From Geotalea daltonii FRC-32 (lineage in GTDB: Bacteria; Desulfobacterota; Desulfuromonadia; Geobacterales; Geobacteraceae): 32,000 nucleotides of DNA. Below, one piece after another: positions 7,967 to 26,379 of the stretch. The notes below the pieces were generated by a model. It searched no databases. It had not been told where the DNA came from and worked only from the letters and a program-made list of their open reading frames with translations. The translations under genes and the position numbers were made by a program. Within the stretch, counting starts at the first letter, position 1; every line of letters starts with the position of its first letter. The stretch lies in assembly GCF_000022265.1 (NCBI RefSeq), contig NC_011979.1, forward strand, positions 3,060,001 to 3,092,000, written 5' to 3'.

Positions 7967-8001
7967 TCTGAAGTTTTGAAATAATATTATCGGGGGGTCA
8001 T

Positions 8002-9141
8002 ATGCGGCACAGATTATTGCCATTTATTTCTGCAGCAACCTTGATACTGTCCAGCGTAACAGCCTTTGCGGCGCCAACCATAAAAATCGGCGCACTTTTT
8101 TCCGTTACCGGCCCGGCTGCTTTCCTTGGCGAACCAGAGCGCAATACTGCCGTAATGGTTGTTGATCAAATCAACAAGGCAGGGGGCATCAAGGGCAAGA
8201 AGCTTGAGCTGGTGGTTTACGACACCGGCGGTGACGCAACGAAAGCCAAACAGCTGGTCAACAAGCTGATCAAGAATGACAAAGTCTCGGCAATCATCGG
8301 CCCCAGTACTACCGGTGAATCCATGGCAATCATCAATGACGTGGAAAAGGCAGGTATACCTCTGATTTCCTGTTCAGCAGGAATAAAAATTACCGAGCCT
8401 GCCAAAAAGTGGGTCTTCAAGACTGCCCAGAATGATTCCCTTGCCGTGGCCAGGATATACGACTACCTGCAGAAGCACAAGCTGACCAAGGTAGCCATCC
8501 TCACCGTTTCCGACGGTTTCGGCCAGTCCGGCCGCGAGCAGCTTAAGGCCCAGGCTGCCAGGTATGGCATCTCCGTTATTTCCGATGATACTTACGGACC
8601 GAAAGATACCGACATGTCGGCACAACTGACGAAGGTCAGAGGCTCCAAGGCCCAGGCGCTCATTTGCTGGGGGACCAATCCCGGGCCGGCGGTTGTTGCC
8701 AAGAATGCACGCCAGCTGGGCATCAAAATTCCCCTATTCATGAGTCATGGGGTCTCCTCGAAGAAATTCATTCAACTGGCGGGGGATGCAGCCGAAGGGA
8801 TCAAGCTGCCGTCAGGTAAGGTTATAGTTGCCGATGTGCTGCCCGCCTCAGATCCTCAGAAGAAATCCCTCCTGTCCTTCGTCAACGACTATAAGAGGCA
8901 ATTCAAAGCTGAAGGCGACCATTTTGGCGGTCATGCCTGGGATGCGGTCATGCTCCTGAAAGGGGCCATCGAGAGGGGAGGGGATGCTCCTGCAGGTATC
9001 CGCAACCAACTGGAAAAGACCAGGCAGTTCCATGGCATTGGCGGTACCTTTACCTTTACGCCCAAGGACCATGCCGGTCTGGGCAAAGATGCCTTTGTTC
9101 TGGTGGAAGTTAAAAACAGGGACTGGGTCCTCGTCAAATAA
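8002..9141 (+). CDS. ABC transporter periplasmic substrate-binding protein, LivJ family (paralogue 2)
   Basis: 379 aa, colinear with the preceding protein and sharing long identical stretches (YDTGGDATKAKQLVNKLIKNDKVS, IGPSTTGESMAII). Signal peptide ..VTAFAAPT. Confidence 0.85.
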   Translation: MRHRLLPFISAATLILSSVTAFAAPTIKIGALFSVTGPAAFLGEPERNTAVMVVDQINKAGGIKGKKLELVVYDTGGDATKAKQLVNKLIKNDKVSAIIGPSTTGESMAIINDVEKAGIPLISCSAGIKITEPAKKWVFKTAQNDSLAVARIYDYLQKHKLTKVAILTVSDGFGQSGREQLKAQAARYGISVISDDTYGPKDTDMSAQLTKVRGSKAQALICWGTNPGPAVVAKNARQLGIKIPLFMSHGVSSKKFIQLAGDAAEGIKLPSGKVIVADVLPASDPQKKSLLSFVNDYKRQFKAEGDHFGGHAWDAVMLLKGAIERGGDAPAGIRNQLEKTRQFHGIGGTFTFTPKDHAGLGKDAFVLVEVKNRDWVLVK

Positions 9142-15259: not shown

Positions 15260-15679
15260 TCACTTCCGGCCTGGAATTAGATAGAGTGAAATTTTAGCTG
15301 CCTTTTTGACTATTTCGAAATGAGCATCCAGTGTGGCCAACGGGACACCGGCCTGTGCAGTAGCGGCGGCAATGAAGCAGTCGGCAAGACCGATGGTATG
15401 TCCCGAGCGGCGTAGATTGAAAGAGAGTCGCCCGGCTGCAGCCCATAATTCCGGGGTTTCCGGCAGGAATTCGAAGACATGCGGGAAATCGGCAAGCACG
15501 GCAAGCTCTTTGTCAGATTTTGCCCCCTGCATAAGTTCGGCAAGGATGATCCCGGTGCAGCAAACCTGTTCTTCGTCGATCAACCGCGTCACCACGCTAA
15601 AGCAGGGCTCTTGCTTGCGGAAGAACTCGATCCAGGCGGAAGTATCGACGAGAACCTTAGCCAAGGCGGTGGTCTCCAT
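15260..15679 (-). CDS. vapC: type II toxin, PIN-domain ribonuclease (VapC family)
   Basis: VLVDTSAWIEFF N-terminal acidic motif and C-terminal LATLDAHF. The start is uncertain: ATG 15679, or a TTG overlapping the antitoxin stop. Overlaps the upstream antitoxin gene. Confidence 0.75.
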   Translation of the reverse strand: METTALAKVLVDTSAWIEFFRKQEPCFSVVTRLIDEEQVCCTGIILAELMQGAKSDKELAVLADFPHVFEFLPETPELWAAAGRLSFNLRRSGHTIGLADCFIAAATAQAGVPLATLDAHFEIVKKAAKISLYLIPGRK

Positions 15680-15866
15680 GTCGCAGTTCATCAGCATCCG
15701 CGATAAACTCCATCTTCCCGGCCATGGCCTTTATACGGGCCGCCTTGCGCAGGCGTATCTCATCCCTGACAGCGGTAAGAACAGCTTCAGTCTTGGTCTT
15801 GGCATCCACCAAAGACATGAGCTCGGTCAAAAGGTCCTGTGGGAGTGTGACGGTTGCACGTGCCAT
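15657..15866 (-). CDS. vapB: type II antitoxin (VapB-like, about 69 aa)
   Basis: ATG 15866 is preceded by AAGGAG. MARATVTLPQDLLTEL.. is typical of small ribbon-helix-helix-type VapB antitoxins. The 3' end overlaps vapC. Confidence 0.6.
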   Translation of the reverse strand: MARATVTLPQDLLTELMSLVDAKTKTEAVLTAVRDEIRLRKAARIKAMAGKMEFIADADELRHGDHRLG

Positions 15867-15883
15867 AAGGGTCTCCTTTATTT

Positions 15884-15910
15884 CACACAAGTTATTATAC
15901 CTATTGTGTG
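15884..15910. promoter_or_regulatory. inverted repeat bracketing the vapBC -10 box (probable operator)
   Basis: CACACAA (15884-15890) and TTGTGTG (15904-15910) flank TATAAT on the - strand (complement of 15894-15899). Confidence 0.45.
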
Positions 15911-15941
15911 CTTCAAGCCAACACAAAAAATCACATGTTGC

Positions 15942-16733
15942 TCATGGTAATTTGATCTTACCTTTTGCGCAGGCATTGTTTTCGGCGATTTCCATCCGGG
16001 CGATGTTTGCCAGCGGGAAGATCAAGACTCCCCTCCCCTTTTGATACAAAGCACAGTGGGTGGCGGAGGTCTGGATCAGGTGGCCCGAGTAGGTGTCGAA
16101 GCTCTTTGATGGGTTGGTGACGAGGAGGGTCGCGCGGGAAGTGAAAGGCTTGGTGCTGGGTTTGCCGGAGAGGATTTCTTTGTAGTTTTGTTTGGCAATG
16201 GCCTTACCCTGCTCGCTTGCCCATTGGGACGTTTTAGCAACCACTAGTACCATTAACACTGACGCGGCAACGGTAAGTATGAGCAGATAAAGCCTGTTAA
16301 TAATCCTTTCTATGGTATCGCTGAAATGAAAATGCTCAGAAGCCTTAGGTTTTAACCATTCAACAAACATCTGAGCAAGTTTTTCCAGTTTTTGCCTCAC
16401 CCGTCTAAGGCAGCAAACCATTGCTAATAAAATTAACGCAGTAACTAAATAGAAAAGAGTCACTACGTAATCCATCAGGACATTTACAAACACCAGCAGA
16501 TAGGCAATAACACCGTTAATGACCGACTGTTCCTTAGACAAAGAGAACATGTCTTCGGACAAACCCCAGTATGAGTTGTAACCATCGCAATACGTACGCC
16601 CATAATAGGAGAGCAGTCCGGTCATAAGAGCAATTGCCAGCGCTAGGATTGAGGCATAATCCTTCCAGTCTAGCTTGGTCTTGGTTGATTGCGGGGTTGT
16701 AGCTGTATTTTCAGGACCAAATTTCTGTTCCAT
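15942..16733 (-). CDS. hypothetical membrane protein (about 4 TM helices plus a roughly 90 aa soluble C-terminal domain)
   Basis: Hydrophobic stretches ILALAIALMTGLLSYY, VIAYLLVFVNVLM, VVTLFYLVTALILLAMV and LYLLILTVAASVLMVLVVA. The ATG lies 9 nt after the HNH gene stop, and the RBS GGGAG overlaps that stop. Confidence 0.6.
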   Translation of the reverse strand: MEQKFGPENTATTPQSTKTKLDWKDYASILALAIALMTGLLSYYGRTYCDGYNSYWGLSEDMFSLSKEQSVINGVIAYLLVFVNVLMDYVVTLFYLVTALILLAMVCCLRRVRQKLEKLAQMFVEWLKPKASEHFHFSDTIERIINRLYLLILTVAASVLMVLVVAKTSQWASEQGKAIAKQNYKEILSGKPSTKPFTSRATLLVTNPSKSFDTYSGHLIQTSATHCALYQKGRGVLIFPLANIARMEIAENNACAKGKIKLP

Positions 16734-16742
16734 TCCATCTCC

Positions 16743-17720
16743 CTAAAGCCGCCAATCGCGGCGATGTTCTGCAAGATATTCCTGTGCCGGCCACAGGTTA
16801 TTGTCTTTCGGCCCGATGATGCCGCGTCCGCTGAGCGTCAGCAGGAACCCCGGCGCGTTCGGCTGTGCAGAAATATGTCGGGAGGTAATGACTTCATAGC
16901 CGTCAGAGACTCCCATCATCCCATTGTCGAATGCCCAGTGACAAAGCCTGCACAGCGCCATGCCGTTGCGGATATCATCATTATTGCTTTTGCTCCAAGG
17001 AACAATATGAGCTGCCTCAACTGCGGTATATTGCTCGGGGGTGATGATCCTGACACCGCACAGGGCGCAGCGATGGTCATAGGTGGTGACCACCAGTCGC
17101 CGAAAGCCTTGATCTCGCGCGATGGGGCGGTAGTTATCCGCCTCGATTATCTCCTTGACCAGCGGCAAATGTGATTTCTCCTCCAGAATCCGGCTGTAAT
17201 CATAGGCTTCGCGATTGATGACAGACTGCTCCCGCAGTTGCGCCTGTGCTTCGGGTGAGAAGCAGGAAAGGAGCAGTGCTTCCCTCAGCGCCTCCCTTCC
17301 CTCACCTGTCTGCATCACACCGAACAACTCTTCGTCCAACCGCACACCCAGAGCGTACTTGCGGAGGTAGCTGACGGAGGACGTGTTGTTGATGATGGCG
17401 GGGGTTATGGTTTTATCCGGCAGGGGGACCAATTCCCAGAACGACTCGCGATCCAGGCGAGAAAACGGAAAGGCGATGCTGCTGGTCTGGCCAAGAGGGA
17501 CGACGCGACGCCAGTAGAGGTTGAACAGTTCGTTTAGCTCGACCAGATCGCCGGTGACGTCGATGAATGGTGAGGTGATGACGCCACGATGCACTAGGTC
17601 CAGCACGGCCAGAAGTAGGATTGGCTTGTGCGGGGCCTTGCGCTTGGTGGCTTCGGTCCAGGTTGGGCCGGGGGCGCGGTTGAGGGAGGTGAAAAATTTG
17701 ATAAAGAGAGCAATATTCAT
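16743..17720 (-). CDS. HNH endonuclease with an N-terminal putative DNA-modification-reader domain (type IV restriction-like)
   Basis: C-terminal HNH motif DHRCALCG..AAHIVPW..NGMALCRLCHWAFD. The N-terminal roughly 200 aa contain APHKPILLLAVLDLVHRG and IAFPFSRL. Confidence 0.75.
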   Translation of the reverse strand: MNIALFIKFFTSLNRAPGPTWTEATKRKAPHKPILLLAVLDLVHRGVITSPFIDVTGDLVELNELFNLYWRRVVPLGQTSSIAFPFSRLDRESFWELVPLPDKTITPAIINNTSSVSYLRKYALGVRLDEELFGVMQTGEGREALREALLLSCFSPEAQAQLREQSVINREAYDYSRILEEKSHLPLVKEIIEADNYRPIARDQGFRRLVVTTYDHRCALCGVRIITPEQYTAVEAAHIVPWSKSNNDDIRNGMALCRLCHWAFDNGMMGVSDGYEVITSRHISAQPNAPGFLLTLSGRGIIGPKDNNLWPAQEYLAEHRRDWRL

Positions 17721-17771
17721 TGGAGGTTTTCTAACTCAAGTGTATTGTCTCCCGAAAGTCCCAATAGGAGG

Positions 17772-18422
17772 TTACCGTATGTATTTTTTACATATCCTGA
17801 AATGGGTTGCATTGGTCTTGTGGAACTTCTTGAAGTCGGCCTCCATGTTCGGATCTGTGAAATGAACCACATCCTGCATATCAGCTCCATGAGAAATAAG
17901 GCCTGGACTTATCACTATCTTATACTGACTTATAAATTCTGCGACAATGTCTTTGAACTTCGGCATGAAGTGCTGATACTCTGCTTCCTCGCTGGTAATC
18001 AAGTCTCCAGTTTCGCTACAAGCCAACTTTCCCCCACTTTTTTTAAAGGCTTCATTTTTTTGATATATTAGTTCATCAGAAACTGCGTGCCTGCAGGCTC
18101 TGTAAAAAAGTTGTTCTGTAGTTGGAGGATTTGCTTTTATGCAACTGATATATGAAAACTCCGTTGGCACATTGTCAGCTCGCATTATGAAAAAACAAGG
18201 TGTGTGGTATTCAGGTGATGTGCCCCTGTAAAAATATTTAATTCCTTCGCCAATTTTGTATTCTGCTTCAGGATGGCGTTGAAGTAACTCAGAAAGCAAT
18301 CTTGTGTCATCTGAATTTAACACTTGCCCATCACTATACGTGTTGAGCATGTCTTTGAAGAATTCCATAGCTGCTTTCTGAGTTCTAAAATATTTACTTG
18401 TAAGCTCAACCGATTTTGCCAT
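17772..18422 (-). CDS. hamC: DUF3223 / DCL-family protein; HamC-like third component of type II Hachiman
   Basis: The stretch FRTQKAAMEFFKDMLN..LLSELLQRHPEAEYKIGEGIKYFYRG..CFFIMRADNVPTEFSYISCI matches my memory of the DUF3223 consensus. Same strand, 148 nt downstream of the helicase gene. Confidence 0.55.
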   Translation of the reverse strand: MAKSVELTSKYFRTQKAAMEFFKDMLNTYSDGQVLNSDDTRLLSELLQRHPEAEYKIGEGIKYFYRGTSPEYHTPCFFIMRADNVPTEFSYISCIKANPPTTEQLFYRACRHAVSDELIYQKNEAFKKSGGKLACSETGDLITSEEAEYQHFMPKFKDIVAEFISQYKIVISPGLISHGADMQDVVHFTDPNMEADFKKFHKTNATHFRICKKYIR

Positions 18423-18570
18423 ATTTTTACTCCTCTCAAATGCTACAGTAGAAGGCTTGATTTGTTTAGCTATATGACGAGGTCCTGGGTTATCGGCGGT
18501 TGGTGCTCAAGCTTGTTGAGCATCATCACGTTTAACATGATCTTGAGAAATATGGCAACCGGATCGTGCG

Positions 18571-21024
18571 TCAACCTATAAATCGCCTAATTTCAAATCT
18601 GTAGAAATCATTAACTGTCTGGAGAAACTCGTCTAGCGCTGGTGTAGCTCGTAGGTTATTGAATTCGTCGAACTCAAGATTGTTTAGCTGTCCGTCCTCT
18701 TCTAGCCTCGAAACCATTCCCACACTCAAGCCGTATTTTGTCAATCGAATCTTCTTCTCATCATTAGTTCCATATATGTATAGGTTGTACTCATCCGTGG
18801 AAATAAGGTGGTAATCAAACAGCATCACTATGAACTTGTTGATCTTGAAACTTACGAAATCGTCCTCCATTTTGAGCTTAACCACGGCCAAATTGACGAG
18901 TTGTCTATCATTCTTGATCGCAAGGTCGACATAGGTGTTGTTGGAAGGACTGAGATAGGATGCCGTTTCGTAAGGCTCCTCTCCGTATGATTTGCCAAAA
19001 TACATCTTGCTGTTGTTTGAGTTCACTTTCTGCTTGAAATACTGGATCTGCGAGTTGATGTTCTCGTTCAGCGCCTTCTTTTGCGCTATCAGTATATGGG
19101 ACTCGTAGTAGTTTCTGGTTTCGGCGTGCGACAGACGTTTGATCTCAGCGTCACTTATGCTGTCAATCTCTCGCAAGAAAAGATACTCAATCTTCTCCAT
19201 CATGGGTGCGGCCGTCCACCATTCTGGGGGGCATGAAGCGAGGGTAGGTGATTCTGCAATAATCCGACGTACTACTTCGTCGGGATCAGAGTAGAATTCA
19301 ATAATCCCAGATTGGATTAGATATGCCTTTATTTCATCATCCATCGTCTGTGGCGTATCTGTTAAAAAACGCTCGTTTTCCTGCACCATGGTCACTTTTT
19401 CAAGGTACTTCTCTTTGGATTCAACCGGCATGGAGAGTGCTTCTATATCAAATGCTTCAAGCATTGGGTTCTTAATCTCATCATCAAAAACGCGGCTTCT
19501 GAGGAGAGCTATCTTGTTCTCCATTTTGCTCTTAGCGCTATTGTGTTCCTCGTTATTTACAAAGTGAACCTTTGGTAGGAGCCGCTCTAACCTGTTTCCC
19601 TTTTGCCCGAATATAGTGTTGAGCCTGTTGACACGGCCAATTAGATTCATGAGTTCCTTGCCGCGAAGAGAGTAAGTGTTGAATATGAAGAGTGTATCGA
19701 TTGGGAAATTCATGCCTTCAAGAATAACTGAATTTGCAACGACATATTTGAGCTCAGGCAGATCTTTATATTTGAACTCAAGATATTCTTTCACAAGGTC
19801 AGGAAGCTTTCCATGTAGATAAACGACACCATGCTTTAAGTGTTCGATGGCGTAAAAATCAGGGTGGACTTCATTAGTTAAAATCCGAGCCAACTCACTA
19901 ACCTTATCAGTGGGCTCGATCTGGGGCACCATTTCGCAGAGTTCACCTGCGAGCCGTTCAACCTTTACTGGCCGGTAGTTATACAAGAAGTTTTTCTCTC
20001 CAGAGTTTGCTAGAACATAGTCCTTTATTTCTACGCCCTCGCGCAGTTTATAAGTACTGCCCAGAAATCTATTGTACTGATGTACCTCCTTGTTAAGTCG
20101 CAATTCATATATCTCTGGTTCCTTAACGTTAAATCTGATTACATGTGAAGATATGTTCTGGTCTGGGGCCAATCGAAGACTGTTGGCATCGTTGAGAAGA
20201 GGAGAGAGGTAGATCACACGACTACTTGGATTCAATACGCGGTTCTTAGCTATGACGCGAGAAAGGAGAATGCTTCTGCTGTTCCCCTTGAGAAGATTAT
20301 GAGCCTCGTCAACAAAGACTATATCGAAGCAGGTATTATGCTTGGCGAGCAGACGTAATGCGCGTTCTTGGGTGAATACGGCAATAAACGAATCCTCCCC
20401 GTCATACATTTCGTCATGAATTATCAGCTTTCGTTGTAGATTTGCCTTCCTGATCATCTGAAAAGTCTGGATCAGTAGTGACTTTGTTGGAACTAAGATA
20501 ACGATTCTGCTTGGGATGGTACCTAATCGCTTGATTTGATCTACAATGAGTGAACTTTTACCAAAGGACGTAGGCGCCAAGTAGCAAGACTCTTGAGCGT
20601 TCTCATTCAGGAAAGAGGAGCTTGCGATGAACTGTTCAAGAGTGAGTATGTCATCGCTTTCATTGCGGAACCTGTCAAGCTTGATATCCCCAAGGCAAGT
20701 AATAATGAGATTACTGTCGTAAAGACCATTGGTGAGTATAGCTTTGGCTATTGGATAGAATCCAAAGTTTACAGCGAAGTCGTATAGGGGGGCGTAATCA
20801 GCATATTGTAGAGAGTACTTCAAAATTATGTAATAGGCGAGGTCTGCGTATGAGGTATAACGCCGGTCCTGTTGGTAGCGTCTTATAAATAGCATGGCGG
20901 CAGCAAGAATATACGCTCGATCACCTGGCTTAAGGCTTTCGCCAACAGTTAGTTGTGCGAAGACATCGCGGAATCGCTCCTCCTTCCCAAGACTGGTCAT
21001 CGTTTTCTTTTCGGCGCTCTGCAT
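18571..21024 (-). CDS. hamB: SF2 DEAD/DEAH-box helicase, HamB-like
   Basis: 817 aa. Motif I LAPTSFGKSS, motif II VFVDEAHNL, motif VI LIGRVNRL, plus about 350 aa of C-terminal extension. The start is 4 nt after the stop of the upstream 257 aa gene. Confidence 0.65.
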   Translation of the reverse strand: MQSAEKKTMTSLGKEERFRDVFAQLTVGESLKPGDRAYILAAAMLFIRRYQQDRRYTSYADLAYYIILKYSLQYADYAPLYDFAVNFGFYPIAKAILTNGLYDSNLIITCLGDIKLDRFRNESDDILTLEQFIASSSFLNENAQESCYLAPTSFGKSSLIVDQIKRLGTIPSRIVILVPTKSLLIQTFQMIRKANLQRKLIIHDEMYDGEDSFIAVFTQERALRLLAKHNTCFDIVFVDEAHNLLKGNSRSILLSRVIAKNRVLNPSSRVIYLSPLLNDANSLRLAPDQNISSHVIRFNVKEPEIYELRLNKEVHQYNRFLGSTYKLREGVEIKDYVLANSGEKNFLYNYRPVKVERLAGELCEMVPQIEPTDKVSELARILTNEVHPDFYAIEHLKHGVVYLHGKLPDLVKEYLEFKYKDLPELKYVVANSVILEGMNFPIDTLFIFNTYSLRGKELMNLIGRVNRLNTIFGQKGNRLERLLPKVHFVNNEEHNSAKSKMENKIALLRSRVFDDEIKNPMLEAFDIEALSMPVESKEKYLEKVTMVQENERFLTDTPQTMDDEIKAYLIQSGIIEFYSDPDEVVRRIIAESPTLASCPPEWWTAAPMMEKIEYLFLREIDSISDAEIKRLSHAETRNYYESHILIAQKKALNENINSQIQYFKQKVNSNNSKMYFGKSYGEEPYETASYLSPSNNTYVDLAIKNDRQLVNLAVVKLKMEDDFVSFKINKFIVMLFDYHLISTDEYNLYIYGTNDEKKIRLTKYGLSVGMVSRLEEDGQLNNLEFDEFNNLRATPALDEFLQTVNDFYRFEIRRFIG

Positions 21025-21028
21025 ATGC

Positions 21029-21802
21029 CTAGCCCTCCAGGTATTTCCAGAACAAGTCAGTTGACGCCTTGTTAACGCATATTATTTGGATTTTGCTGAA
21101 GCTAAAGCTTTTCATCAGTTGCTCAAGCTTTGGGGCTAGGTCACCGACGTCGATATCGGACCACTCTCCTTCAAGAAACAGCGTTGAACCAGGAATGATA
21201 TTGAATGAGGCTATGTCCTGACGTGTACCAAGAGTGAACGCCCTAGCCAGAGCTTTCAGATTCTGCCGGATACTTTCGGCTGTACCCACATCTACAAGAC
21301 TGGCGTGGTTATATGCATTCTGCCAGGGATTGTTTGCTGGGTTACCAGAAATCTTGTCTTTCAGATCAGAGTAGGCCAATGAGACCTTTGACTCATGCGA
21401 CGCATTCGCCGTCGCCATGGAGCCAGATTTGCTTTCGTAAATCCAAGCCTCTTCTTTAAGGGAGTAATATCCATCAAAGCCCTTCTTAATAGAACCTTCC
21501 TCGAGATTTAGAAACAGGAACTCTTGCTTGAAGCCAATCTCTGTCAAATAAAGGTGCCCGAAAAATTCTGCAATCGCCCCCATCTCTGTTGTAGAGCCCT
21601 TTTTAGGAAGTAAGAATGCTATAAGACGCTGCTTAATTGTAGGTATGTCTGTATCTGTTGCACCTTCGCAGATGGAGACGATACTCGCGTCAATGCGGGA
21701 AGTTATGTCGTCGTTCAGTGTGGGGATGTTGATGAAATGAAGATAATTGCCGTTACCCAAATTTATGCGCTCGAAATCGAAGACATTGCCCTGAAAAGAC
21801 AT
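21029..21802 (-). CDS. hamA: PD-(D/E)xK-like nuclease, HamA (DUF1837)-like
   Basis: I place the start at ATG 21802 (RBS AGGAGA 7 nt upstream). GFDGYY..(10 aa)..IYESKSG fits a D..ExK nuclease motif at a position similar to HamA. Size (257 aa) and position directly upstream of the helicase also fit. Confidence 0.55.
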   Translation of the reverse strand: MSFQGNVFDFERINLGNGNYLHFINIPTLNDDITSRIDASIVSICEGATDTDIPTIKQRLIAFLLPKKGSTTEMGAIAEFFGHLYLTEIGFKQEFLFLNLEEGSIKKGFDGYYSLKEEAWIYESKSGSMATANASHESKVSLAYSDLKDKISGNPANNPWQNAYNHASLVDVGTAESIRQNLKALARAFTLGTRQDIASFNIIPGSTLFLEGEWSDIDVGDLAPKLEQLMKSFSFSKIQIICVNKASTDLFWKYLEG

Positions 21803-21913
21803 TTTCTGTTCTCCTGGGTTCTCATGGCGCACAACCGCTGCACTGAAATCTTTTGAATTTTACCTATAAAAAATCCCCAGCCCTGTGGGAAGCGCAACAA
21901 GGAGAACTTGGAG

Positions 21914-22176
21914 TCGATGGTATAGATGCCTTCCGGTGTCCTGCAATTTCCTTCTTCGGTTTTCTTGCCTTGAGGATTCCGCCCCAGTGCTACCTCATAG
22001 GACTTGAGCGGTTTCCCCTGCCGGAAGAGTGTCAGCCTGCGAGGCCCCTTCTCGATCAGGATCCTGTCAGCAACCACGCCAGCGGCGAGAGGCTTGCTCT
22101 CTGGCTTCCCGAAAATCCAGATCACAGCCACTGAAGCGATGATTATCGCGATAAATGCGAGCAATAGCTTTTTCAC
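21914..22176 (-). pseudogene. 5' fragment (about 87 codons) of an L,D-transpeptidase (YkuD) paralogue
   Basis: From GTG 22176 the product VKKLLLAFIAIIIASVAVIWIFGKPESKPL..CRTPEGIYTID is colinear with the intact copy at 23814-24338. Homology stops abruptly at about 21914, where the hamA upstream region begins. Confidence 0.75.
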
Positions 22177-22251
22177 ATCATAGAAAATTAGGGACACTTC
22201 CCCATTTTTACTAATTGCTTTTTACGTGCGCCCTTGCCCTATCCGTAACTC
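22177..22251 (-). repeat. R unit, diverged copy D (spacer that follows L,D-transpeptidase 3' ends)
   Basis: Hand alignment to R copies A and B (..TTAGGGACAC..TTTTTACTAAT..). It ends at the stop of fragment D and starts 6 nt from the GTG of the 5' fragment. Confidence 0.4.
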
Positions 22252-22274
22252 CTACGGCACTATCTCCACAACCA
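22252..22274 (-). pseudogene. L,D-transpeptidase 3' terminus, fragment D (last 7 codons plus TAG)
   Basis: Contains the 19-nt core GGCACTATCTCCACAACCA (22256-22274). Confidence 0.55.
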
Positions 22275-22280
22275 TGTAGC

Positions 22281-22363
22281 GAAATCCGGGGACACAATAC
22301 GCATTTCCTGGCAACAGCTAGTTCAACCCATCCCCAGCTGCCCTGCGTCTTCTCAGATTCCCC
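22281..22363 (-). repeat. R unit, diverged copy C
   Basis: Starts GAAATCCGGGGACAC and ends ..CTGCGTCTTCTCAGATTCCCC next to the stop of fragment C. Confidence 0.45.
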
Positions 22364-22508
22364 TTACGGCACTATCTCCACAACCACCCCATCCGGCACC
22401 ACCCGCCAAATCTCCTCAATCTCCTGGTTCGTAACCGCAACACATCCCAGCGTCCAATCCCTTATCATGTGCAGCTTGCCGACAAAACCGAGGGCATTGG
22501 GCAGGCCG
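22364..22508 (-). pseudogene. L,D-transpeptidase 3' fragment C (about 48 codons, TAA stop)
   Basis: Encodes ..LPNALGFVGKLHMIRDWTLGCVAVTNQEIEEIWRVVPDGVVVEIVP*. Core 19-mer at 22368-22386. Confidence 0.75.
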
Positions 22509-22510
22509 GG

Positions 22511-22591
22511 GAAATATCCGGGACAGATTTATTTTCTTCTAATATAAAATAGATTGCTTCCCTACAAGAGCGCCTGCGATTCTCTGTCCCC
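22511..22591 (-). repeat. R unit, copy B
   Basis: ATCCGGGACAGATTTATTTTCTTCTAATA.. is near-identical to copy A. 8-bp inverted termini GGGACAGA (22520-22527) / TCTGTCCC (22583-22590). Confidence 0.7.
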
Positions 22592-22815
22592 TCATGGCAC
22601 TATCTCCACAACCACCCCATCAGGAACAACCCGCCAGATCTCCTCAATCTCCGGATTCGTCACGGCAACGCACCCCAGCGTCCAATCCCTTATCAGGTGA
22701 AGCTTACCGACAAAGCCGAGGGCATTGGGCAGGCCGTGGATCATCACATCACCACCTGGTGAAACGCCCCGTGCCTTGGCCTGGGCGACATCCGACGGGC
22801 TGGAGTGGGATAACA
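22592..22815 (-). pseudogene. L,D-transpeptidase 3' fragment B (about 74 codons, TGA stop)
   Basis: Encodes ..SPSDVAQAKARGVSPGGDVMIHGLPNALGFVGKLHLIRDWTLGCVAVTNPEIEEIWRVVPDGVVVEIVP*. Core 19-mer at 22596-22614. Confidence 0.75.
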
Positions 22816-22817
22816 GG

Positions 22818-22858
22818 GACAGGCTGCTTTTTTATTTCTCTTTCTAAAGCAGCCTGTC
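22818..22858 (-). terminator. 13-bp inverted repeat downstream of the secreted-protein gene (possible terminator)
   Basis: GACAGGCTGCTTT (22818-22830) / AAAGCAGCCTGTC (22846-22858). The loop is large (15 nt) and there is no clear U-tract on the - strand. Confidence 0.4.
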
Positions 22859-22894
22859 GCTCTTAATTATTCTTTTAGATCCCGATTTCCGTTA

Positions 22895-23644
22895 TTAAAA
22901 GCTTAACGCTCGCCACGCAATGCTGCCATCAGCGTATTTAGCGCATATCTCCAGGCTATCTTTTACCCCTGCTGCACCGCTCGTGTACCATAGGGTTCCA
23001 AGAGTATCTGTGGTACATGCAGGTTGTACGGCAACCGTGGGGGTGAGGGGGGGATTTTGGCTAAGGTCTGTGCTGGTGGCAATAGCTTTATTTATTTGAA
23101 GACCTCCGCGGAATTGTACAGTAGTTGATGGATCAACATTGGATTGTTTGATTCTCATTACCATTACCGGTCTGATGATATTGCTGGAGATCAGACTATT
23201 ACACTGGTTGAAAACCCTGAATCCACCGTCGCCTGACCCGAACATAGAGGAACATCCATTAGCTGATTTCGGAATCCAATTTGTTCCGTCAAAGGCAGTC
23301 CCTGATGAAACAAAGACATTGTTGGAGCCAGCGGAAGTTATATATCCGCCATTATCCTCGCCGTTATAGGATAAATGGATACTTGAGTCCTTGGCATGCA
23401 AAGTATCATCAGGGTTCGATATGTCCAGTGTGTAACCGGTAGGTCTAGCATTTGGACCTTTAGGGAGATTGATACTTACATATCCAAAAAAATCGGGCCC
23501 ATGTGTTTCGTTTGATTGAATGTTACCGTTCTCAACTATGGTTTCAGCACCTGCGGAGCCAAGGAAGCATATGCTGATACACGCAAAACTTGCCACTAGT
23601 CCTTTTACTTTCTTTACTACTTTCCACAACTCTCTTTCTTGCAT
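22895..23644 (-). CDS. hypothetical secreted protein
   Basis: ATG 23644 is preceded by AGGAGG (6-nt spacing). Signal peptide KVKGLVASFACISICFLGSAGAE. The mature part is rich in Gly/Ser/Asn/Thr with several Cys. I recognise no family. Confidence 0.55.
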   Translation of the reverse strand: MQERELWKVVKKVKGLVASFACISICFLGSAGAETIVENGNIQSNETHGPDFFGYVSINLPKGPNARPTGYTLDISNPDDTLHAKDSSIHLSYNGEDNGGYITSAGSNNVFVSSGTAFDGTNWIPKSANGCSSMFGSGDGGFRVFNQCNSLISSNIIRPVMVMRIKQSNVDPSTTVQFRGGLQINKAIATSTDLSQNPPLTPTVAVQPACTTDTLGTLWYTSGAAGVKDSLEICAKYADGSIAWRALSF

Positions 23645-23726
23645 CCTGTTCCTCCTGTTTTTTGGGTATAGGCCAAAGGCCATTCATGCATCCCCCCAAT
23701 AACTGATAAAAACGGGGGTGTAACTT

Positions 23727-23813
23727 AAAAATCCGGGACAGATCTATTTTCTTCTAATACAAATTATTGAGATAATACTTCCCTACAAAAGCGCCAGCGC
23801 TATGCCTGCCTCT
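23727..23813 (-). repeat. R unit, copy A (downstream of the intact L,D-transpeptidase gene)
   Basis: AAAAATCCGGGACAGATCTATTTTCTTCTAATAC..CCCTACAAAAGCGCC.. aligns with 22511-22591. Confidence 0.7.
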
Positions 23814-24338
23814 TCATGGCACTATCTCCACAACCACCCCATCAGGCACAACCCGCCAAATCTCCTCAATATCCGGATTCGTCACCGCAACGCACCCCAG
23901 CGTCCAATCCCTTATCAGATGCACTTTGCCGACAAAACCGAGGGCGTTGGGCAGGCCGTGGATCATCACATCACCACCCGGCGATACGCTACGTGCCTTG
24001 GCTTGGGCGACATCTGCTGAACTTGGATAGGAAATATGGAGGGCTCGATGATACCTGCTGCTCTGCTTGCGGCGGTCGATGGTATAGATTCCCTCCGGTG
24101 TCCTGCAATCGCCTTCTTCGGTTTTCTTGCCTTGCGGATTCCGTCCCAGGGCTACCTCATAGGTCTTGAGCCGTTTCCCCTGCCTGAAGAGTGTCAGCCT
24201 GCGAGGCCCCTTCTCGATCAGGACCCTATCAGCAACCACACCAGCGGGAAGAGGCTTGCTCTCTGGCTTACCGAGCATCCAGATCACAGCCACTGAACCG
24301 ATGATTATCAATACAAATGCGAGCAATAGCTTTTTCAC
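23814..24338 (-). CDS. L,D-transpeptidase (YkuD/ErfK family), membrane-anchored
   Basis: 174 aa with a GTG start. N-terminal anchor KKLLLAFVLIIIGSVAVIW. Catalytic region IHGLPNALGFVGKVHLIRDWTLGCVAV (the HG...GC motif of YkuD domains). Confidence 0.85.
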   Translation of the reverse strand: MKKLLLAFVLIIIGSVAVIWMLGKPESKPLPAGVVADRVLIEKGPRRLTLFRQGKRLKTYEVALGRNPQGKKTEEGDCRTPEGIYTIDRRKQSSRYHRALHISYPSSADVAQAKARSVSPGGDVMIHGLPNALGFVGKVHLIRDWTLGCVAVTNPDIEEIWRVVPDGVVVEIVP

Positions 24339-24437
24339 ATCAGTCTCTTCTGTTCAAAGACCTTCAGATTTACAAATTAATGAGCTCTTTTCTACTCCTC
24401 CAGCCGCACAAATTCAATAAAAAAATCGCAGAGTTAG

Positions 24438-24474
24438 CTGTAAAATTTTTTTACAGGTGTAAAAAATTTTACAC
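24438..24474. promoter_or_regulatory. two abutting AT-rich palindromes upstream of the L,D-transpeptidase gene
   Basis: CTGTAAAA-TTT-TTTTACAG (24438-24456) is followed directly by GTGTAAAA-AA-TTTTACAC (24457-24474). Confidence 0.4.
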
Positions 24475-24674
24475 ATCGGCAAAAATGGCTGGAATTTAAC
24501 GAGGTTAGAAAGGGCAGGAAAAGAGTGAAGAAAAAGGCAAGGGAGAAATTCGAAGGGTGAAGAGTGAAAAAAATCTGCGGATGGAGTTATTTCACTTCTT
24601 GCTGGCGTTGTTTCTGGTGTTCTTGACTGCGGAGTTCAAGGGGTTGGCGCAGTATTTCGGATACCAGCTCGACA

Positions 24675-24968
24675 TCAAACATAGATCGCTTCCCGATCAA
24701 TACGGCTCTTGAGAAATGCGTTCATTCGGTCGCGGTAATGTACGACGTCAACATGTTCGTGCAGGGCTTCCTCTAGAGTCTCCTTGACATGAACGAGGGT
24801 GTATAGGTTCGGGTCTTTCATCTTGACGACCACATCCACATCGCTCGTCCCTGTCGTCTGCTCGCGGGCTACCGAACCGAAAATCCCAAGTTCTGTAATG
24901 CCATAGCAGTCAAGGAGCTCCTGTTTTAGCCTGCTTAGAACAGCAAGCGCATCATCCCTAAGTATCAT
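24675..24968 (-). CDS. nucleotidyltransferase-domain protein (MNT-type antitoxin), apparently orphan
   Basis: GIFGSVAREQTTGTSDVDVVV (the GS..DxD polymerase-beta-like NTase motif). ATG 24968 follows GGGGG. No HEPN ORF lies downstream. Confidence 0.75.
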   Translation of the reverse strand: MILRDDALAVLSRLKQELLDCYGITELGIFGSVAREQTTGTSDVDVVVKMKDPNLYTLVHVKETLEEALHEHVDVVHYRDRMNAFLKSRIDREAIYV

Positions 24969-25102
24969 ATGACGCCCCCAAATCAGCGAACACTTTTCGA
25001 AGTCCACTAATACAATATTTGCATTAGTGGAGCAAGGCGAAGTTAGAGCATTTCGATCTGCCGTCGCGTGAGTGATTGTTTGACGCAGCCTCTCAACAAC
25101 TC

Positions 25103-25372
25103 TCAGGCTGCCCTCTTCCGCTGGTGCTCCATAGCAGACCTAAGAATCCTGTTGATCCTGGTCTGATAGCCCTTTCCCCCCTGCTTCAGCCAGTCAAGCA
25201 CGTCGGCATCCAGACGAATAGTAACGATCTCTTTTACCGGCCGGTAAAAACGCCCGACGACGGCGCTGCTCCAGTCAGTGTTCTCCGGAATCTCGGAAGT
25301 GTCAATCTCTTCATCGGATATTGCGGCAAGGACCGCCAATTCATCAGCCAACTTTTTATCTGCCTTCTTCAT
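25103..25372 (-). CDS. brnA: BrnA-family antitoxin
   Basis: 89 aa. Has ..EEIDTSEIPE..DW.. and a C-terminal ribbon-helix-helix-like IRLDADVLDWLKQGGKGYQTRINRILRSAM. Overlaps the toxin gene by 17 nt. Confidence 0.8.
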   Translation of the reverse strand: MKKADKKLADELAVLAAISDEEIDTSEIPENTDWSSAVVGRFYRPVKEIVTIRLDADVLDWLKQGGKGYQTRINRILRSAMEHQRKRAA

Positions 25373-25640
25373 ATCGTTGCCTCTCTTTCTTCGTTGCCTT
25401 GCGGGCGGAAATGATGCGGATCATCTCGTCATCATCCTGCTCGACGAAGGAATGAGCCACCAGCAGCACGACCACGTTGCCCACCAAGCCCAACGTCTGC
25501 CAGCGTTCCTCTCCGTTTTCGATCCGGTCGAGAACGCTAAGGTGAAAAGGGTCATCGAAAACAAGGCTGGCTAGTTCAAAACTTACCTTGTGCTTAATCT
25601 TGTTGCTGGTATTTTTGTTTTCGTCCCAGACAAGCTGCAC
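25356..25640 (-). CDS. brnT: BrnT-family toxin (DUF497 ribonuclease)
   Basis: VQLVWDENKNTSNKIKHKVSFELASLVFDDP..RIISARKATKKERQRY. I prefer the GTG at 25640 (GGGAG upstream); the TTG at 25652 is possible. Confidence 0.8.
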   Translation of the reverse strand: MQLVWDENKNTSNKIKHKVSFELASLVFDDPFHLSVLDRIENGEERWQTLGLVGNVVVLLVAHSFVEQDDDEMIRIISARKATKKERQRYEEGR

Positions 25641-25655
25641 GTGTACTCCCAATCG

Positions 25656-25685
25656 TTTACATAATTGTATTTACAGTTATGTAAA
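25656..25685. promoter_or_regulatory. inverted repeat in the brnTA promoter (probable operator)
   Basis: TTTACATAA (25656-25664) / TTATGTAAA (25677-25685), a perfect 9-bp repeat. TTGACT on the - strand is at the complement of 25686-25691. Confidence 0.45.
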
Positions 25686-25700
25686 AGTCAACCAGTTATT

Positions 25701-26348: not shown

Positions 26349-26379
26349 GCGCCAGACCGATTCCGATCGGCGATGGGAA

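What the first reader, a model, noticed from the sequence alone, without database searches (positions are those of the whole stretch)
15942..17720. Translationally coupled HNH nuclease + 4-TM protein: candidate undescribed two-gene defence module beside Hachiman
The 325 aa protein (16743-17720) joins a clear C-terminal HNH motif (DHRCALCG..AAHIVPW..NGMALCRLCHWAFD) to an N-terminal domain of about 200 aa (APHKPILLLAVLDLVHRG ... IAFPFSRL). From memory, that domain's HR dipeptide plus an aromatic-Pro pair about 40 residues later resembles the sulfur-binding (phosphorothioate-reading) domain of ScoMcrA-type type IV restriction enzymes. Its TAG stop sits inside the RBS (GGGAG) of the next gene, which starts 9 nt later. 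That gene encodes 263 aa with about four TM helices and a soluble tail of about 90 aa carrying no motif I recognise. Stand-alone modification-dependent HNH enzymes are not known to need a membrane partner, so the coupling suggests a sensor-nuclease plus membrane-effector (abortive-infection-like) arrangement. The pair is also compositionally mosaic. My hand counts on single 60-nt lines give 37/60 G+C at 17041 (HNH) against 22/60 at 16441 (TM helices), while the 3' end of the TM gene is GC-rich again.
Basis: partly seen in the sequence, partly recalled or inferred. Interest (0 to 1): 0.7.

Follow-up and report, generated by a model that had tools for sequence, protein, structure and literature searches.

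The report
Sulfur-sensing restriction nuclease plus optional membrane partner
A known kind of restriction enzyme that cuts sulfur-modified (phosphorothioated) DNA is followed in Geotalea daltonii by an uncharacterised membrane-protein gene; that gene is an optional, swappable add-on found in bacterial defence islands, not a required partner.

Summary
Two minus-strand ORFs (325 aa, 16743-17720; 263 aa, 15942-16733) are separated by 9 nt, with a GGAG at the stop codon. The window is Geotalea daltonii FRC-32.

**The 325 aa protein** is an SBD-HNH, phosphorothioate-dependent type IV restriction-enzyme homologue:
- NCBIfam PT-DNA_restrict matches at E=1.8e-37.
- PDB 8H0L (SBDHga) matches at E=8.7e-6.
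- The sulfur-cavity equivalents H31-K32/F84-P85/R88 are invariant.

**The 263 aa protein** has no Pfam, NCBIfam, PADLOC or PHROG family. A fair-confidence AlphaFold2 model shows 3-4 TM helices and a C-terminal five-stranded small beta-barrel.
- Close homologues (21 clusters) lie directly behind this HNH gene in 9 of 11 lineages.
- Only about 3 of 48 genomes with a full-length close HNH homologue carry it.
- Elsewhere the same slot, starting at the HNH stop codon, holds NERD, TM-NERD, TM-Mrr or other defence-type genes.
- Distant relatives (444 clusters) sit beside Olokun, PDC-S41 and nSTAND genes, or in toxin-antitoxin islands, without SBD-HNH.

**Verdict:** a known enzyme type with a facultative, recombinationally exchanged membrane cassette of an undescribed defence-island family. 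An obligate sensor-effector pair is not supported. Interest is moderate.

The parts
16743..17720 (-). SBD-HNH gene (325 aa), a predicted phosphorothioate-dependent type IV restriction endonuclease
   Evidence: ORF confirmed. NCBIfam NF045808 PT-DNA_restrict matches at E=1.8e-37 over profile positions 13-280 of 284. Pfam HNH_2 matches at 4.1e-13. More than 1,450 homologue clusters exist, mostly at 75-90% identity in Desulfuromonadales.
17262..17639 (-). Sulfur-binding domain (residues ~28-153), with cavity residues H31, K32, F84, P85 and R88
   Evidence: A profile of 7 homologues matches PDB 8H0L (SBDHga1) at E=8.7e-6; the single sequence matches at 0.0024. The published cavity residues H25/K26/L75/P76/H79 (PMC10602919) align to H31/K32/F84/P85/R88. 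All five are invariant in alignments A1 and A7.
16758..17114 (-). HNH nuclease domain (residues ~203-321; core 218-271), with C218/C221/C257/C260 zinc ligands and H216/N252/H261
   Evidence: Pfam HNH_2 and HNH hits. PADLOC PDLC04132 matches at 8e-17. PDB TagI and an HNH endonuclease (6ghs, 6yex) match. The motif residues are invariant.
16734..16742 (-). 9-nt spacer GGAGATGGA; the Shine-Dalgarno sequence overlaps the HNH TAG stop
   Evidence: Read directly from the sequence. Homologous loci have 5-81 nt spacers, each with its own Shine-Dalgarno sequence, and homology between loci breaks exactly at the HNH stop codon.
15942..16733 (-). Gene for a 263 aa membrane protein (Geob_2810) of an uncharacterised family
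   Evidence: No Pfam, NCBIfam, PADLOC, PHROG or PDB sequence match. There are 21 close clusters and 444 clusters at E<=1e-3 among 1.84 billion representatives. The AlphaFold2 model has pLDDT 79.6.
16230..16655 (-). Membrane region. Firm TM segments lie at about residues 27-45, 88-108 and 148-168; residues 71-87 form a weaker hydrophobic segment. The motif GY(L/N)SYWGL..(L/M)F(S/P)LS.E lies after TM1.
   Evidence: AlphaFold2 helices at 23-56, 67-107, 110-132 and 139-189. Family hydropathy and charge profile: loop 44-72 is net negative and loop 109-147 is net +3.6. The motif is conserved across the superfamily.
15981..16145 (-). C-terminal five-stranded small beta-barrel (residues 197-251; motif SGHLIQTSATHCALY..GV.IFPL). 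It is the best-conserved and GC3-rich part of the gene.
   Evidence: AlphaFold2 pLDDT is about 90. Foldseek gives only weak Sm/Hfq/SH3-like matches, with E>=0.012 against PDB and >=0.005 against BFVD. GC3 is 0.72 here against 0.47 upstream. The region is 84.5% identical at the nucleotide level to the paralogue P0012 in L006.
15844..17100 (-). Recombination block (HNH catalytic half, whole membrane-protein gene and spacer), 100% identical to a metagenomic contig whose SBD half is only 74-88% identical
   Evidence: Sliding nucleotide identity between L006 and the window. The membrane-protein gene differs at 1 of 792 nt, while 97 HNH codons differ between the two, and every amino-acid-changing difference lies before codon 200.
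17772..21832 (-). Upstream context: a Hachiman-like cluster. HamC/DUF3223 is at 17772-18422, the HamB helicase at 18571-21024, and an unassigned 267 aa ORF in the HamA position at 21029-21832.
   Evidence: PADLOC HamC at 1.7e-65 and HamB at 3e-39. Pfam DUF3223 at 3.8e-23. The HamA-position ORF has no hit. G+C is low, 0.39-0.46.
15260..15926 (-). Downstream context: a VapB-like antitoxin plus PIN (VapC) toxin pair, with its own promoter-like site at 15921-15894
   Evidence: Pfam PIN at 2.7e-15 and a weak VapB hit. A TTGGCT-16-TATAAT site matches 10 of 12 consensus positions. The same pair follows the membrane-protein gene in SG265 and in L006.

Best explanation
The locus is a short operon of two separable parts.

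**Gene 1** is an SBD-HNH type IV restriction endonuclease of the SprMcrA/EcoWI kind.
- Its N-terminal sulfur-binding domain would dock the Rp sulfur of phosphorothioated (dnd/ssp-modified) foreign DNA. The cavity is formed by H31, K32, F84, P85 and R88.
- Its C-terminal zinc-stabilised HNH domain would cut nearby.
- This part is inferred from strong homology.

**Gene 2** encodes a 3-4-TM membrane protein with a C-terminal small beta-barrel and no conserved catalytic residues.
- It occupies a recombinationally exchangeable second-gene slot that begins at the HNH stop codon.
- It is a facultative add-on, probably read from the same transcript. That is inferred from the 9-nt spacing and the absence of a predicted terminator.
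- It is not an obligate partner.

I consider it most likely that the HNH enzyme restricts on its own. The membrane protein would be a self-contained or auxiliary defence-island factor acting at the membrane: abortive-infection-type leakage, or exclusion at DNA entry. Its mechanism is inference only.
For: **HNH identity**
- NCBIfam PT-DNA_restrict at 1.8e-37, matching along the full length.
- PDB SBDHga 8H0L at 8.7e-6.
- Cavity residues conserved (PMC10602919, PMC6224610).
- HNH_2 at 4.1e-13.
- Characterised SBD-HNH enzymes act without partners (PMC7461809).

**Facultative slot**
- 21 membrane-protein clusters against more than 1,450 HNH clusters.
- The partner is present in only 3 of about 48 genome loci with a full-length close HNH homologue.
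- Alternative genes start 10-100 nt after the same stop codon: 7 soluble NERD, 5 TM-NERD, 3 TM-Mrr+Zn-ribbon, and others.
- Homology between loci breaks exactly at the stop codon.
- Partner types are interspersed on the HNH tree.
- In G. toluenoxydans a TM-NERD cassette has replaced the gene, leaving an 84-nt 3' remnant.
- The membrane-protein gene has a GC3 mosaic.

**Defence association of the membrane family**
- Close members lie behind SBD-HNH, next to Hachiman, Qat or nSTAND genes and many toxin-antitoxin pairs.
- Distant members lie next to Olokun OloAB, overlap a PDC-S41 helicase by 4 nt, follow an nSTAND NTPase, or sit in toxin-antitoxin or restriction-modification islands.
- The family has no plasmid, phage or PHROG matches.

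**A real, constrained gene**
- Architecture and motifs are kept down to about 18% identity.
Against: - Linkage of the close membrane-protein subfamily to HNH is very tight: 9 of 11 lineages, kept while the protein diverged to about 30% identity. That would be odd for a fully independent gene.
- A 1.25-kb block joining the HNH catalytic half to the membrane-protein gene moved as a unit.
- Many slot occupants are membrane-anchored (TM-NERD, TM-Mrr, this protein). This hints at a shared membrane-linked role with the HNH enzyme.
- No experiment or structural match supports any activity for the membrane protein.
- Its topology, and therefore the side of the membrane on which the barrel lies, is unresolved.
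- PT dependence of the HNH enzyme is untested, and its score is below NCBIfam's curated cut-off (129 against 180 bits).
- The AlphaFold2 model of the HNH protein failed (pLDDT 40).
Confidence: 0.55

Rival explanations
1. This is the first reader's model: an obligate two-component system. The SBD-HNH protein senses or cuts modified invader DNA and then activates the membrane protein, which collapses the membrane (abortive infection).
For: - The genes are tightly spaced on the same strand, with the Shine-Dalgarno sequence at the stop codon.
- The membrane-protein subfamily sits almost exclusively behind this HNH gene, across deep divergence.
- The HNH catalytic half and the membrane-protein gene transferred together as one identical block.
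- One HNH position (G303 against P) associates with the partner, at p=1e-4 uncorrected.
- From my own knowledge, not tested here: a TM region plus small beta-barrel recalls ligand-gated membrane effectors such as the CBASS effector Cap15.
Against: - Most HNH homologues, at 62-93% identity, lack the partner.
- The slot holds unrelated genes, and homology breaks exactly at the stop codon.
- Distant membrane-protein homologues have no SBD-HNH nearby.
- SBD-HNH enzymes are already complete sensor-plus-nuclease proteins (PMC7461809).
- Pairwise divergences of the two proteins are only weakly correlated (Spearman 0.32, p=0.095).
- The G303 association is largely phylogenetic.
- Foldseek found no significant match to any PDB structure.
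Confidence: 0.17
2. The membrane protein is a tether. It localises the cytoplasmic SBD-HNH nuclease at the inner membrane, near sites of phage or plasmid DNA entry. Sister loci would achieve the same thing by encoding nucleases with their own N-terminal TM anchors.
For: - 17 of the 24 defence-like slot occupants are membrane-anchored: 9 of this protein, 5 TM-NERD and 3 TM-Mrr.
- The barrel and the following helix are the best-conserved parts, matching the high conservation of HNH.
- The HNH catalytic half and this gene were co-transferred.
Against: - The charge-based topology with three firm TM segments puts the barrel outside the cytoplasm.
- Distant homologues occur without any HNH.
- No interaction evidence was obtained, because no complex prediction was run.
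Confidence: 0.1
3. The membrane-protein gene is an unrelated passenger with no defence role. It could be, for example, a selfish or addiction-type membrane toxin, or a niche envelope protein that merely accumulates in variable islands.
For: - Its neighbourhoods are rich in toxin-antitoxin pairs: VapBC, ParE/RelB, BrnTA, HEPN-MNT and Zeta.
- It has no catalytic motif and no match to any defence model.
- The region shows rampant recombination and cassette turnover.
Against: - It keeps a consistent same-strand position directly behind one specific gene in 9 lineages.
- Its distant relatives are adjacent to, or overlap, recognised defence genes such as OloAB and PDC-S41.
- In most loci no antitoxin-like small ORF is paired with it.
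Confidence: 0.15

Closest known systems
SBD-HNH phosphorothioate-dependent type IV restriction endonucleases (SprMcrA, EcoWI and relatives; NCBIfam NF045808; SBD structures 5ZMO, 7CC9, 8H0L)
   Same: - Same two-domain order, N-terminal SBD then C-terminal HNH, at similar length.
- The profile match runs along the full length (1.8e-37).
- The sulfur-cavity residues His-Lys ... aromatic-Pro ... +4 residue are conserved.
- The HNH domain has the four-cysteine zinc motif.
   Different: - The score is below NCBIfam's naming cut-off (129 against 180 bits).
- The lid residue is Phe rather than Tyr or Leu.
- The clade is unusually conserved (75-90% identity) across Desulfuromonadales.
- It is followed by a variable second gene. 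No membrane partner is reported for the characterised enzymes (the word "membrane" does not occur in PMC7461809).
ScoMcrA (SBD-SRA-HNH)
   Same: It has the same SBD and HNH domains and the same sulfur-recognition logic.
   Different: This protein has no SRA domain and no N-terminal head domain. It is about 325 aa, against about 560 aa for ScoMcrA (that length is from my own knowledge).
Hga (SBD fused to a PD-(D/E)xK nuclease, Hahella ganghwensis)
   Same: Its SBD is the closest solved structure by sequence. It uses the same HK dipeptide and the same x-Pro pair.
   Different: The nuclease domain is of a different type: PD-(D/E)xK in Hga, HNH here.
Membrane effectors of abortive-infection systems with TM helices plus a small beta-barrel (e.g. 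the CBASS effector Cap15). This is an analogy from my own knowledge only.
   Same: The general layout is the same: N-terminal TM helices, a C-terminal small beta-barrel, and no catalytic motif.
   Different: - There is no sequence or Foldseek match.
- The helix count differs.
- There is no cyclic-nucleotide synthase nearby.
- Membership is not supported.
Defence-island hot spots and variable-cassette loci
   Same: A conserved anchor gene has sharply bounded, exchangeable neighbouring defence genes, with remnants of displaced cassettes.
   Different: - The boundary here is the stop codon of a defence gene itself, not a core housekeeping gene or tRNA.
- Cassettes appear to be read from the anchor gene's transcript.

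Membership tests
SBD-HNH PT-dependent type IV restriction endonuclease | N-terminal sulfur-binding domain homologous to ScoMcrA/SprMcrA/Hga SBD | tested here: met
   NF045808 matches at E=1.8e-37 over profile positions 13-280 of 284. PDB 8H0L matches at E=8.7e-6 with a 7-sequence profile, residues 28-153.
SBD-HNH PT-dependent type IV restriction endonuclease | Sulfur cavity residues: His-(Arg/Lys), (Tyr/aromatic/Leu)-Pro, and the +4 residue | tested here: met
   H31-K32, F84-P85 and R88 align to SBDHga H25-K26, L75-P76 and H79 (PMC10602919). They correspond to ScoMcrA H116-R117, Y164-P165 and A168 (PMC6224610). All are invariant in 33 homologues.
SBD-HNH PT-dependent type IV restriction endonuclease | C-terminal HNH (beta-beta-alpha-metal) nuclease with catalytic His/Asn/His and zinc cysteines | tested here: met
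   Pfam HNH_2 at 4.1e-13 and HNH at 1.4e-6. H216, N252, H261 and C218/C221/C257/C260 are conserved.
SBD-HNH PT-dependent type IV restriction endonuclease | Score above NCBIfam's curated cut-off for the family name | tested here: not met
   The score is 129 bits against a cut-off of 180. The model is of 'exception' type, so this shows a divergent clade, not non-homology.
SBD-HNH PT-dependent type IV restriction endonuclease | SBD three-dimensional fold | tested here: inconclusive
   The AlphaFold2 model has pLDDT 40.4 and pTM 0.28, because the alignment is shallow (all sequences at least 74% identical). It was not searched.
SBD-HNH PT-dependent type IV restriction endonuclease | PT-dependent DNA binding and cleavage; host lacks a cognate dnd/ssp modification system | not testable with these tools
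   This needs biochemistry and the whole genome. No dnd or ssp gene was seen among the window ORFs scanned.
Obligate two-gene module (HNH + membrane protein) | The membrane protein is found with HNH | tested here: met
   9 of 11 lineages lie directly downstream, 5-81 nt away. The exceptions are P0012 (behind VapBC, 1.4 kb from an HNH-membrane-protein pair) and L079.
Obligate two-gene module (HNH + membrane protein) | HNH is found with the membrane protein | tested here: not met
   Only L010, L012 and L032 among about 48 full-length genome loci carry it. There are 21 clusters against more than 1,450.
Obligate two-gene module (HNH + membrane protein) | Co-divergence of the two proteins | tested here: inconclusive
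   Pearson 0.59, driven by the closest pairs; Spearman 0.32, p=0.095. HNH is 70-90% identical between loci while the membrane protein is 31-63% identical; one pair is 100% identical.
Hachiman (neighbouring system) | HamB helicase, plus HamC (DUF3223) for type II | tested here: met
   HamB at 3e-39 and HamC at 1.7e-65.
Hachiman (neighbouring system) | HamA (DUF1837) nuclease | tested here: not met
   The 267 aa ORF in the HamA position (21029-21832) has no PADLOC or Pfam hit.
Any described membrane or defence protein family, for the 263 aa protein | Significant profile or fold match | tested here: not met
   - Pfam best hit is E=0.0096, below the cut-off.
- NCBIfam best hit is 0.022.
- PADLOC and PHROGs give none.
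- PDB sequence search gives nothing below 0.9.
- Foldseek best hits are 0.012 (PDB) and 0.005 (BFVD), all generic Sm/SH3-like barrels.

The most novel reading that the evidence does not exclude
The 263 aa protein would found a new family of membrane-acting anti-phage or anti-plasmid factors, with TM helices and a C-terminal Sm/SH3-like barrel. That family would plug in as an accessory behind different defence genes: SBD-HNH in Geobacterales, and Olokun, PDC-S41 helicases or nSTAND NTPases elsewhere. In addition, the stop codon of the SBD-HNH gene would mark a dedicated cassette-exchange site. At that site membrane-anchored nucleases (TM-NERD, TM-Mrr) and this protein would be swapped as alternative second lines of defence, functionally coupled to PT-dependent restriction.
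Probability: 0.3. Interest if true: 0.6.

Novelty: new variant of a known kind. Interest (0 to 1): 0.42.

Why it matters
- The nuclease adds a well-conserved Desulfuromonadales clade to the known PT-dependent restriction enzymes. That is ordinary.
- The useful part is the context. The locus gives a concrete, testable case of a type IV restriction gene whose immediately downstream slot is exchanged among membrane-anchored nucleases and an undescribed membrane-protein family.
- If that family has a defence function, it adds a new effector or accessory type: about 444 sequence clusters, absent from Pfam, PADLOC and PHROGs.
- It would also suggest that restriction at the membrane or DNA-entry site is a recurring theme.
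- If the family has no defence function, the locus still documents domain-level recombination (SBD half against catalytic half) in a restriction gene.

Tried and rejected
- **AlphaFold2 of the HNH protein.** A 33-sequence alignment gave pLDDT 40. The model was unusable, so no Foldseek test of the SBD fold was made.
- **Third large protein search.** Using the divergent alignment A4, it returned only the close family and added nothing.
- **Subgroup alignment A5 against metagenome contigs.** Only 2 loci were found. Viral contigs gave none with either subgroup alignment, A5 or A6.
- **tblastn of three family members against plasmids and one against phages.** No match.
- **An island-insertion model.** I looked for HNH 5' fragments or repeats within the window that would show insertion into the HNH gene. 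None were found, so the model is rejected for this window.
- **TM-gene remnants behind other cassette types.** One case only, L018. "The membrane protein was the ancestral occupant everywhere" is therefore not supported.
- **HNH residues specific to partner-carrying loci.** One weak position, G303, was found and is largely phylogenetic. Inconclusive.
- **Promoter and terminator scan.** The counts do not exceed those from shuffled sequence. It was used only to note that no terminator lies between the genes.
- **Weak Pfam and NCBIfam hits of the membrane protein** (DUF1980, TIGR03943, 7tm_7). Rejected as sub-threshold TM-composition matches.
- **MscS-like and Hfq-like Foldseek hits.** Rejected as generic small-barrel similarity.
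Full report
**1. Observation**

The window is from Geotalea daltonii FRC-32; the 263 aa protein is Geob_2810. Both ORFs are present on the minus strand at the stated coordinates.

The HNH ORF ends ...CGG CTT TAG. Nine bases (GGAGATGGA) follow, and then the ATG of the next ORF in the same frame. A GGAG lies 5 nt upstream of that ATG and overlaps the stop codon.

The mosaic is real at synonymous sites: GC3 is 0.68 in HNH, 0.47 in codons 1-190 of the membrane-protein gene, and 0.72 in its last 73 codons.

No terminator-like site lies between HamC, HNH and the membrane-protein gene. A good promoter-like site lies just after the membrane-protein stop, in front of the VapB-like gene. That scan is not statistically enriched.

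**2. The 325 aa protein**

Sequence evidence for the family:
- Pfam finds only the HNH domain (HNH_2, 4.1e-13, residues 218-271).
- NCBIfam NF045808, "phosphorothioated DNA-binding restriction endonuclease", matches along the full length. E is 1.8e-37 over profile positions 13-280 of 284. The score (129 bits) is below the curated cut-off of 180 bits.
- Against PDB sequences, the N-terminal residues 28-153 match the sulfur-binding domain of Hahella Hga (8H0L). E is 0.0024 with the single sequence and 8.7e-6 with a profile of seven homologues.

The sulfur cavity is conserved:
- The 8H0L paper gives the cavity as H25, K26, L75, P76 and H79 (PMC10602919).
- The ScoMcrA paper gives H116, R117 (Lys in most homologues), Y164, P165 and A168 (PMC6224610).
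- In the HMMER alignment these map to H31, K32, F84, P85 and R88 of the window protein. All five are invariant in 7 and in 33 homologues.

Its "HR" dipeptide (H44-R45) is not the cavity dipeptide; H31-K32 in APHKP is.

The HNH catalytic residues and the four zinc cysteines are conserved. An AlphaFold2 model failed (pLDDT 40) because every available homologue is at least 74% identical. The fold itself was therefore not checked.

The family is large: more than 1,450 clusters at E<=1e-5. Many are 75-84% identical to the window protein and come from Geobacter sulfurreducens, Pelobacter propionicus, Desulfuromonas and others.

Characterised SBD-HNH enzymes (SprMcrA, EcoWI and others) bind and cut PT-DNA without partner proteins (PMC7461809). 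A dnd island is known in Geobacter uraniireducens Rf4 (PMC6435447), so PT-DNA does circulate in this group.

**3. The 263 aa protein**

There is no significant match in Pfam, NCBIfam, PADLOC, PHROGs or PDB sequences.

AlphaFold2 with 20 homologues gives a fair model (pLDDT 79.6, pTM 0.65). It shows helices at 23-56, 67-107, 110-132 and 139-189, then a five-stranded barrel at 197-251 with pLDDT of about 90. Foldseek finds nothing better than E=0.012 in PDB or 0.005 in BFVD. All hits are generic Sm/Hfq/SH3-like barrels.

Family-wide hydropathy gives three firm TM segments, at about 27-45, 88-108 and 148-168, plus a weaker one at 71-87. Loop 44-72 is net negative and carries the most conserved motif, GY(L/N)SYWGL..(L/M)F(S/P)LS.E. 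Loop 109-147 is net +3.6. With three TM segments the barrel would be outside the cytoplasm; with four it would be inside. This is unresolved.

No residue that could be catalytic is conserved across the superfamily.

An exhaustive profile search of 1.84 billion representatives finds 444 clusters at E<=1e-3, of which 84 are at <=1e-10. Most are 210-290 aa with the same architecture.

**4. Linkage between the two genes**

From the membrane protein's side, linkage is tight:
- Every contig read for close homologues has the gene 5-81 nt behind a 324-329 aa SBD-HNH gene on the same strand.
- That makes 9 independent lineages.
- There are two exceptions. One is a second paralogue behind VapBC in L006. 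The other is L079, where it follows an unassigned 207 aa ORF with an HNH remnant 1.5 kb away.
- What lies upstream of HNH varies: Hachiman-like here, QatABCD in Geotalea sp. SG265, an nSTAND NTPase, or transposases. The pair therefore does not depend on Hachiman.

From the HNH side, linkage is weak:
- A genome scan gave 70 loci, almost all Desulfuromonadales.
- Of about 48 with a full-length HNH, only three carry the membrane protein.
- In the others a different gene usually starts 10-100 nt after the same stop codon.
- These include 7 soluble NERD proteins, 5 TM-NERD, 3 TM-Mrr_cat+Zn-ribbon, and single cases with Bro-N, SWIM/PDC-S62-like, PrimPol-helicase, Fic or MazG-like genes.
- Homology between loci stops exactly at the HNH stop codon.
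- Partner types are interspersed on the HNH tree.

Sequence divergence also differs sharply. HNH proteins are 70-90% identical between loci, while the membrane proteins are 31-63% identical; one pair (window and L006) is 100% identical. The two sets of distances are only weakly correlated.

**5. Recombination**

- In G. toluenoxydans, whose HNH protein is 93% identical (86% at the nucleotide level), a degraded TM-NERD cassette sits between HNH and VapB. It is followed by an 84-nt remnant of the membrane-protein gene's 3' end. This is direct evidence of cassette replacement.
- A metagenomic contig (L006) is 100% identical to the window over about 15844-17100. That span covers the HNH catalytic half, the whole membrane-protein gene and the spacer. 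The same contig is only 74-88% identical over the SBD half.
- Exchange therefore also happens inside the HNH gene, and in that case the catalytic half travelled with the membrane-protein gene.
- The GC3 break inside the membrane-protein gene fits domain-level exchange. So does the 84.5% nucleotide identity of only the barrel-coding part with the L006 paralogue.

**6. Distant relatives of the membrane protein**

Contexts could be read for six of them:

| Locus | Context |
|---|---|
| L080 | Toxin-antitoxin island (PhD/YefM-like, HEPN-MNT) |
| L082 | Between an nSTAND NTPase and a PDC-S41 (Schlafen-like) helicase, which it overlaps by 4 nt |
| L084 | Behind an XRE regulator, near ArdC |
| L085 | 115 nt behind the Olokun pair OloA-OloB |
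| L087 | In a type I restriction-modification / Mrr / HNH_2 island |
| L088 | Overlapping an unknown 272 aa gene that follows a protein of more than 1,700 aa |

None has an SBD-HNH neighbour. There are no plasmid, phage or viral-contig matches.

**7. Interpretation**

- The nuclease is a member of a known kind and very probably restricts PT-modified DNA by itself.
- The membrane protein belongs to an undescribed family that lives in defence islands and attaches to different defence genes.
- In Geobacterales it is one of several alternative occupants of a slot directly behind the SBD-HNH gene.
- I favour a facultative add-on with its own, or an auxiliary, membrane-level defence role (confidence 0.55).
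- The rivals are an obligate sensor-effector pair (0.17), a membrane tether for the nuclease (0.10) and a non-defence passenger (0.15).
- Two observations keep functional coupling alive. One is the strong one-way linkage. The other is that 17 of the 24 defence-like slot genes are membrane-anchored.
- The mechanism of the membrane protein is inference only.

**8. Novelty and score**

- The HNH enzyme is a new member of a known kind.
- The pairing with an exchangeable membrane cassette, and the membrane family itself, are not described in the libraries or papers I could search.
- I therefore rate the whole as a new variant of a known kind, with interest 0.42.
- It is a useful lead for defence-system discovery, not a surprise for the field.

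Noticed in passing
window 15844-17650, compared with L006 4643-6923: There is a recombination breakpoint inside the HNH gene near codon 200. The catalytic half plus the whole membrane-protein gene are 100% identical to a metagenomic contig, while the SBD half is 74-88% identical. The DNA-reading domain and the nuclease half therefore have separate histories.
   Followed up: partly
L018 (Geotalea toluenoxydans) 6977-8243: A degraded TM-NERD cassette (TM fragment at 7051-7170, NERD ORF at 7391-7966) sits between the HNH stop and VapB. It is followed by an 84-nt remnant (8014-8095) of the membrane-protein gene's 3' end.
   Followed up: yes
L061-L078 (e.g. L065 5977-6312 and 7371-7691; L069 3646-6342): Many Geobacterales genomes keep only 5' fragments of this HNH gene (aa 1 to about 110, 80-89% identical), sometimes several per locus. 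Fic/RhuM, HipA or radical-SAM genes follow them. These may be scars of repeated replacement events; the cause is not established.
   Followed up: partly
window 15942-16733: There is a GC3 step inside the membrane-protein gene: 0.47 for codons 1-190 and 0.72 for codons 191-263. Only the barrel-coding 3' part is 84.5% identical at the nucleotide level to a second paralogue (P0012) on contig L006.
   Followed up: partly
L006 7001-7801: A second, divergent copy of the membrane-protein gene (37% identical) lies behind the VapBC pair on the same contig, with no HNH gene of its own.
   Followed up: no
L004 2922-3809 and L007 429-1241: Additional, more divergent HNH_2 genes lie next to the pair. In L004 the second one has SBD-like and HNH segments (E=2.5e-32 to the HNH profile) and follows the membrane-protein gene directly, giving the order HNH, membrane protein, HNH.
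   Followed up: no
window 21029-21832: The 267 aa ORF in the HamA position, 4 nt upstream of HamB, matches no HamA/DUF1837 or any PADLOC or Pfam model. The Hachiman-like cluster may therefore carry a divergent or replaced first gene.
   Followed up: partly
window 21763-22197 and 23814-24338: A partial YkuD (L,D-transpeptidase) ORF abuts the Hachiman-like cluster, which has low G+C (0.39-0.46). A full YkuD gene lies 1.6 kb further on. This may be a duplication or scar from island insertion.
   Followed up: no
window 24675-26471: More toxin-antitoxin-type genes lie upstream: a nucleotidyltransferase (MNT-like, 24675-25007) and a RES-domain toxin (25701-26471). The whole stretch from 15260 to 26500 is a defence and toxin-antitoxin island.
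   Followed up: no
L082 5001-7831; L085 2411-6750: Distant relatives of the membrane protein overlap a PDC-S41 helicase gene by 4 nt, or follow the Olokun genes OloA-OloB by 115 nt. The family may act as an accessory to several defence systems.
   Followed up: partly
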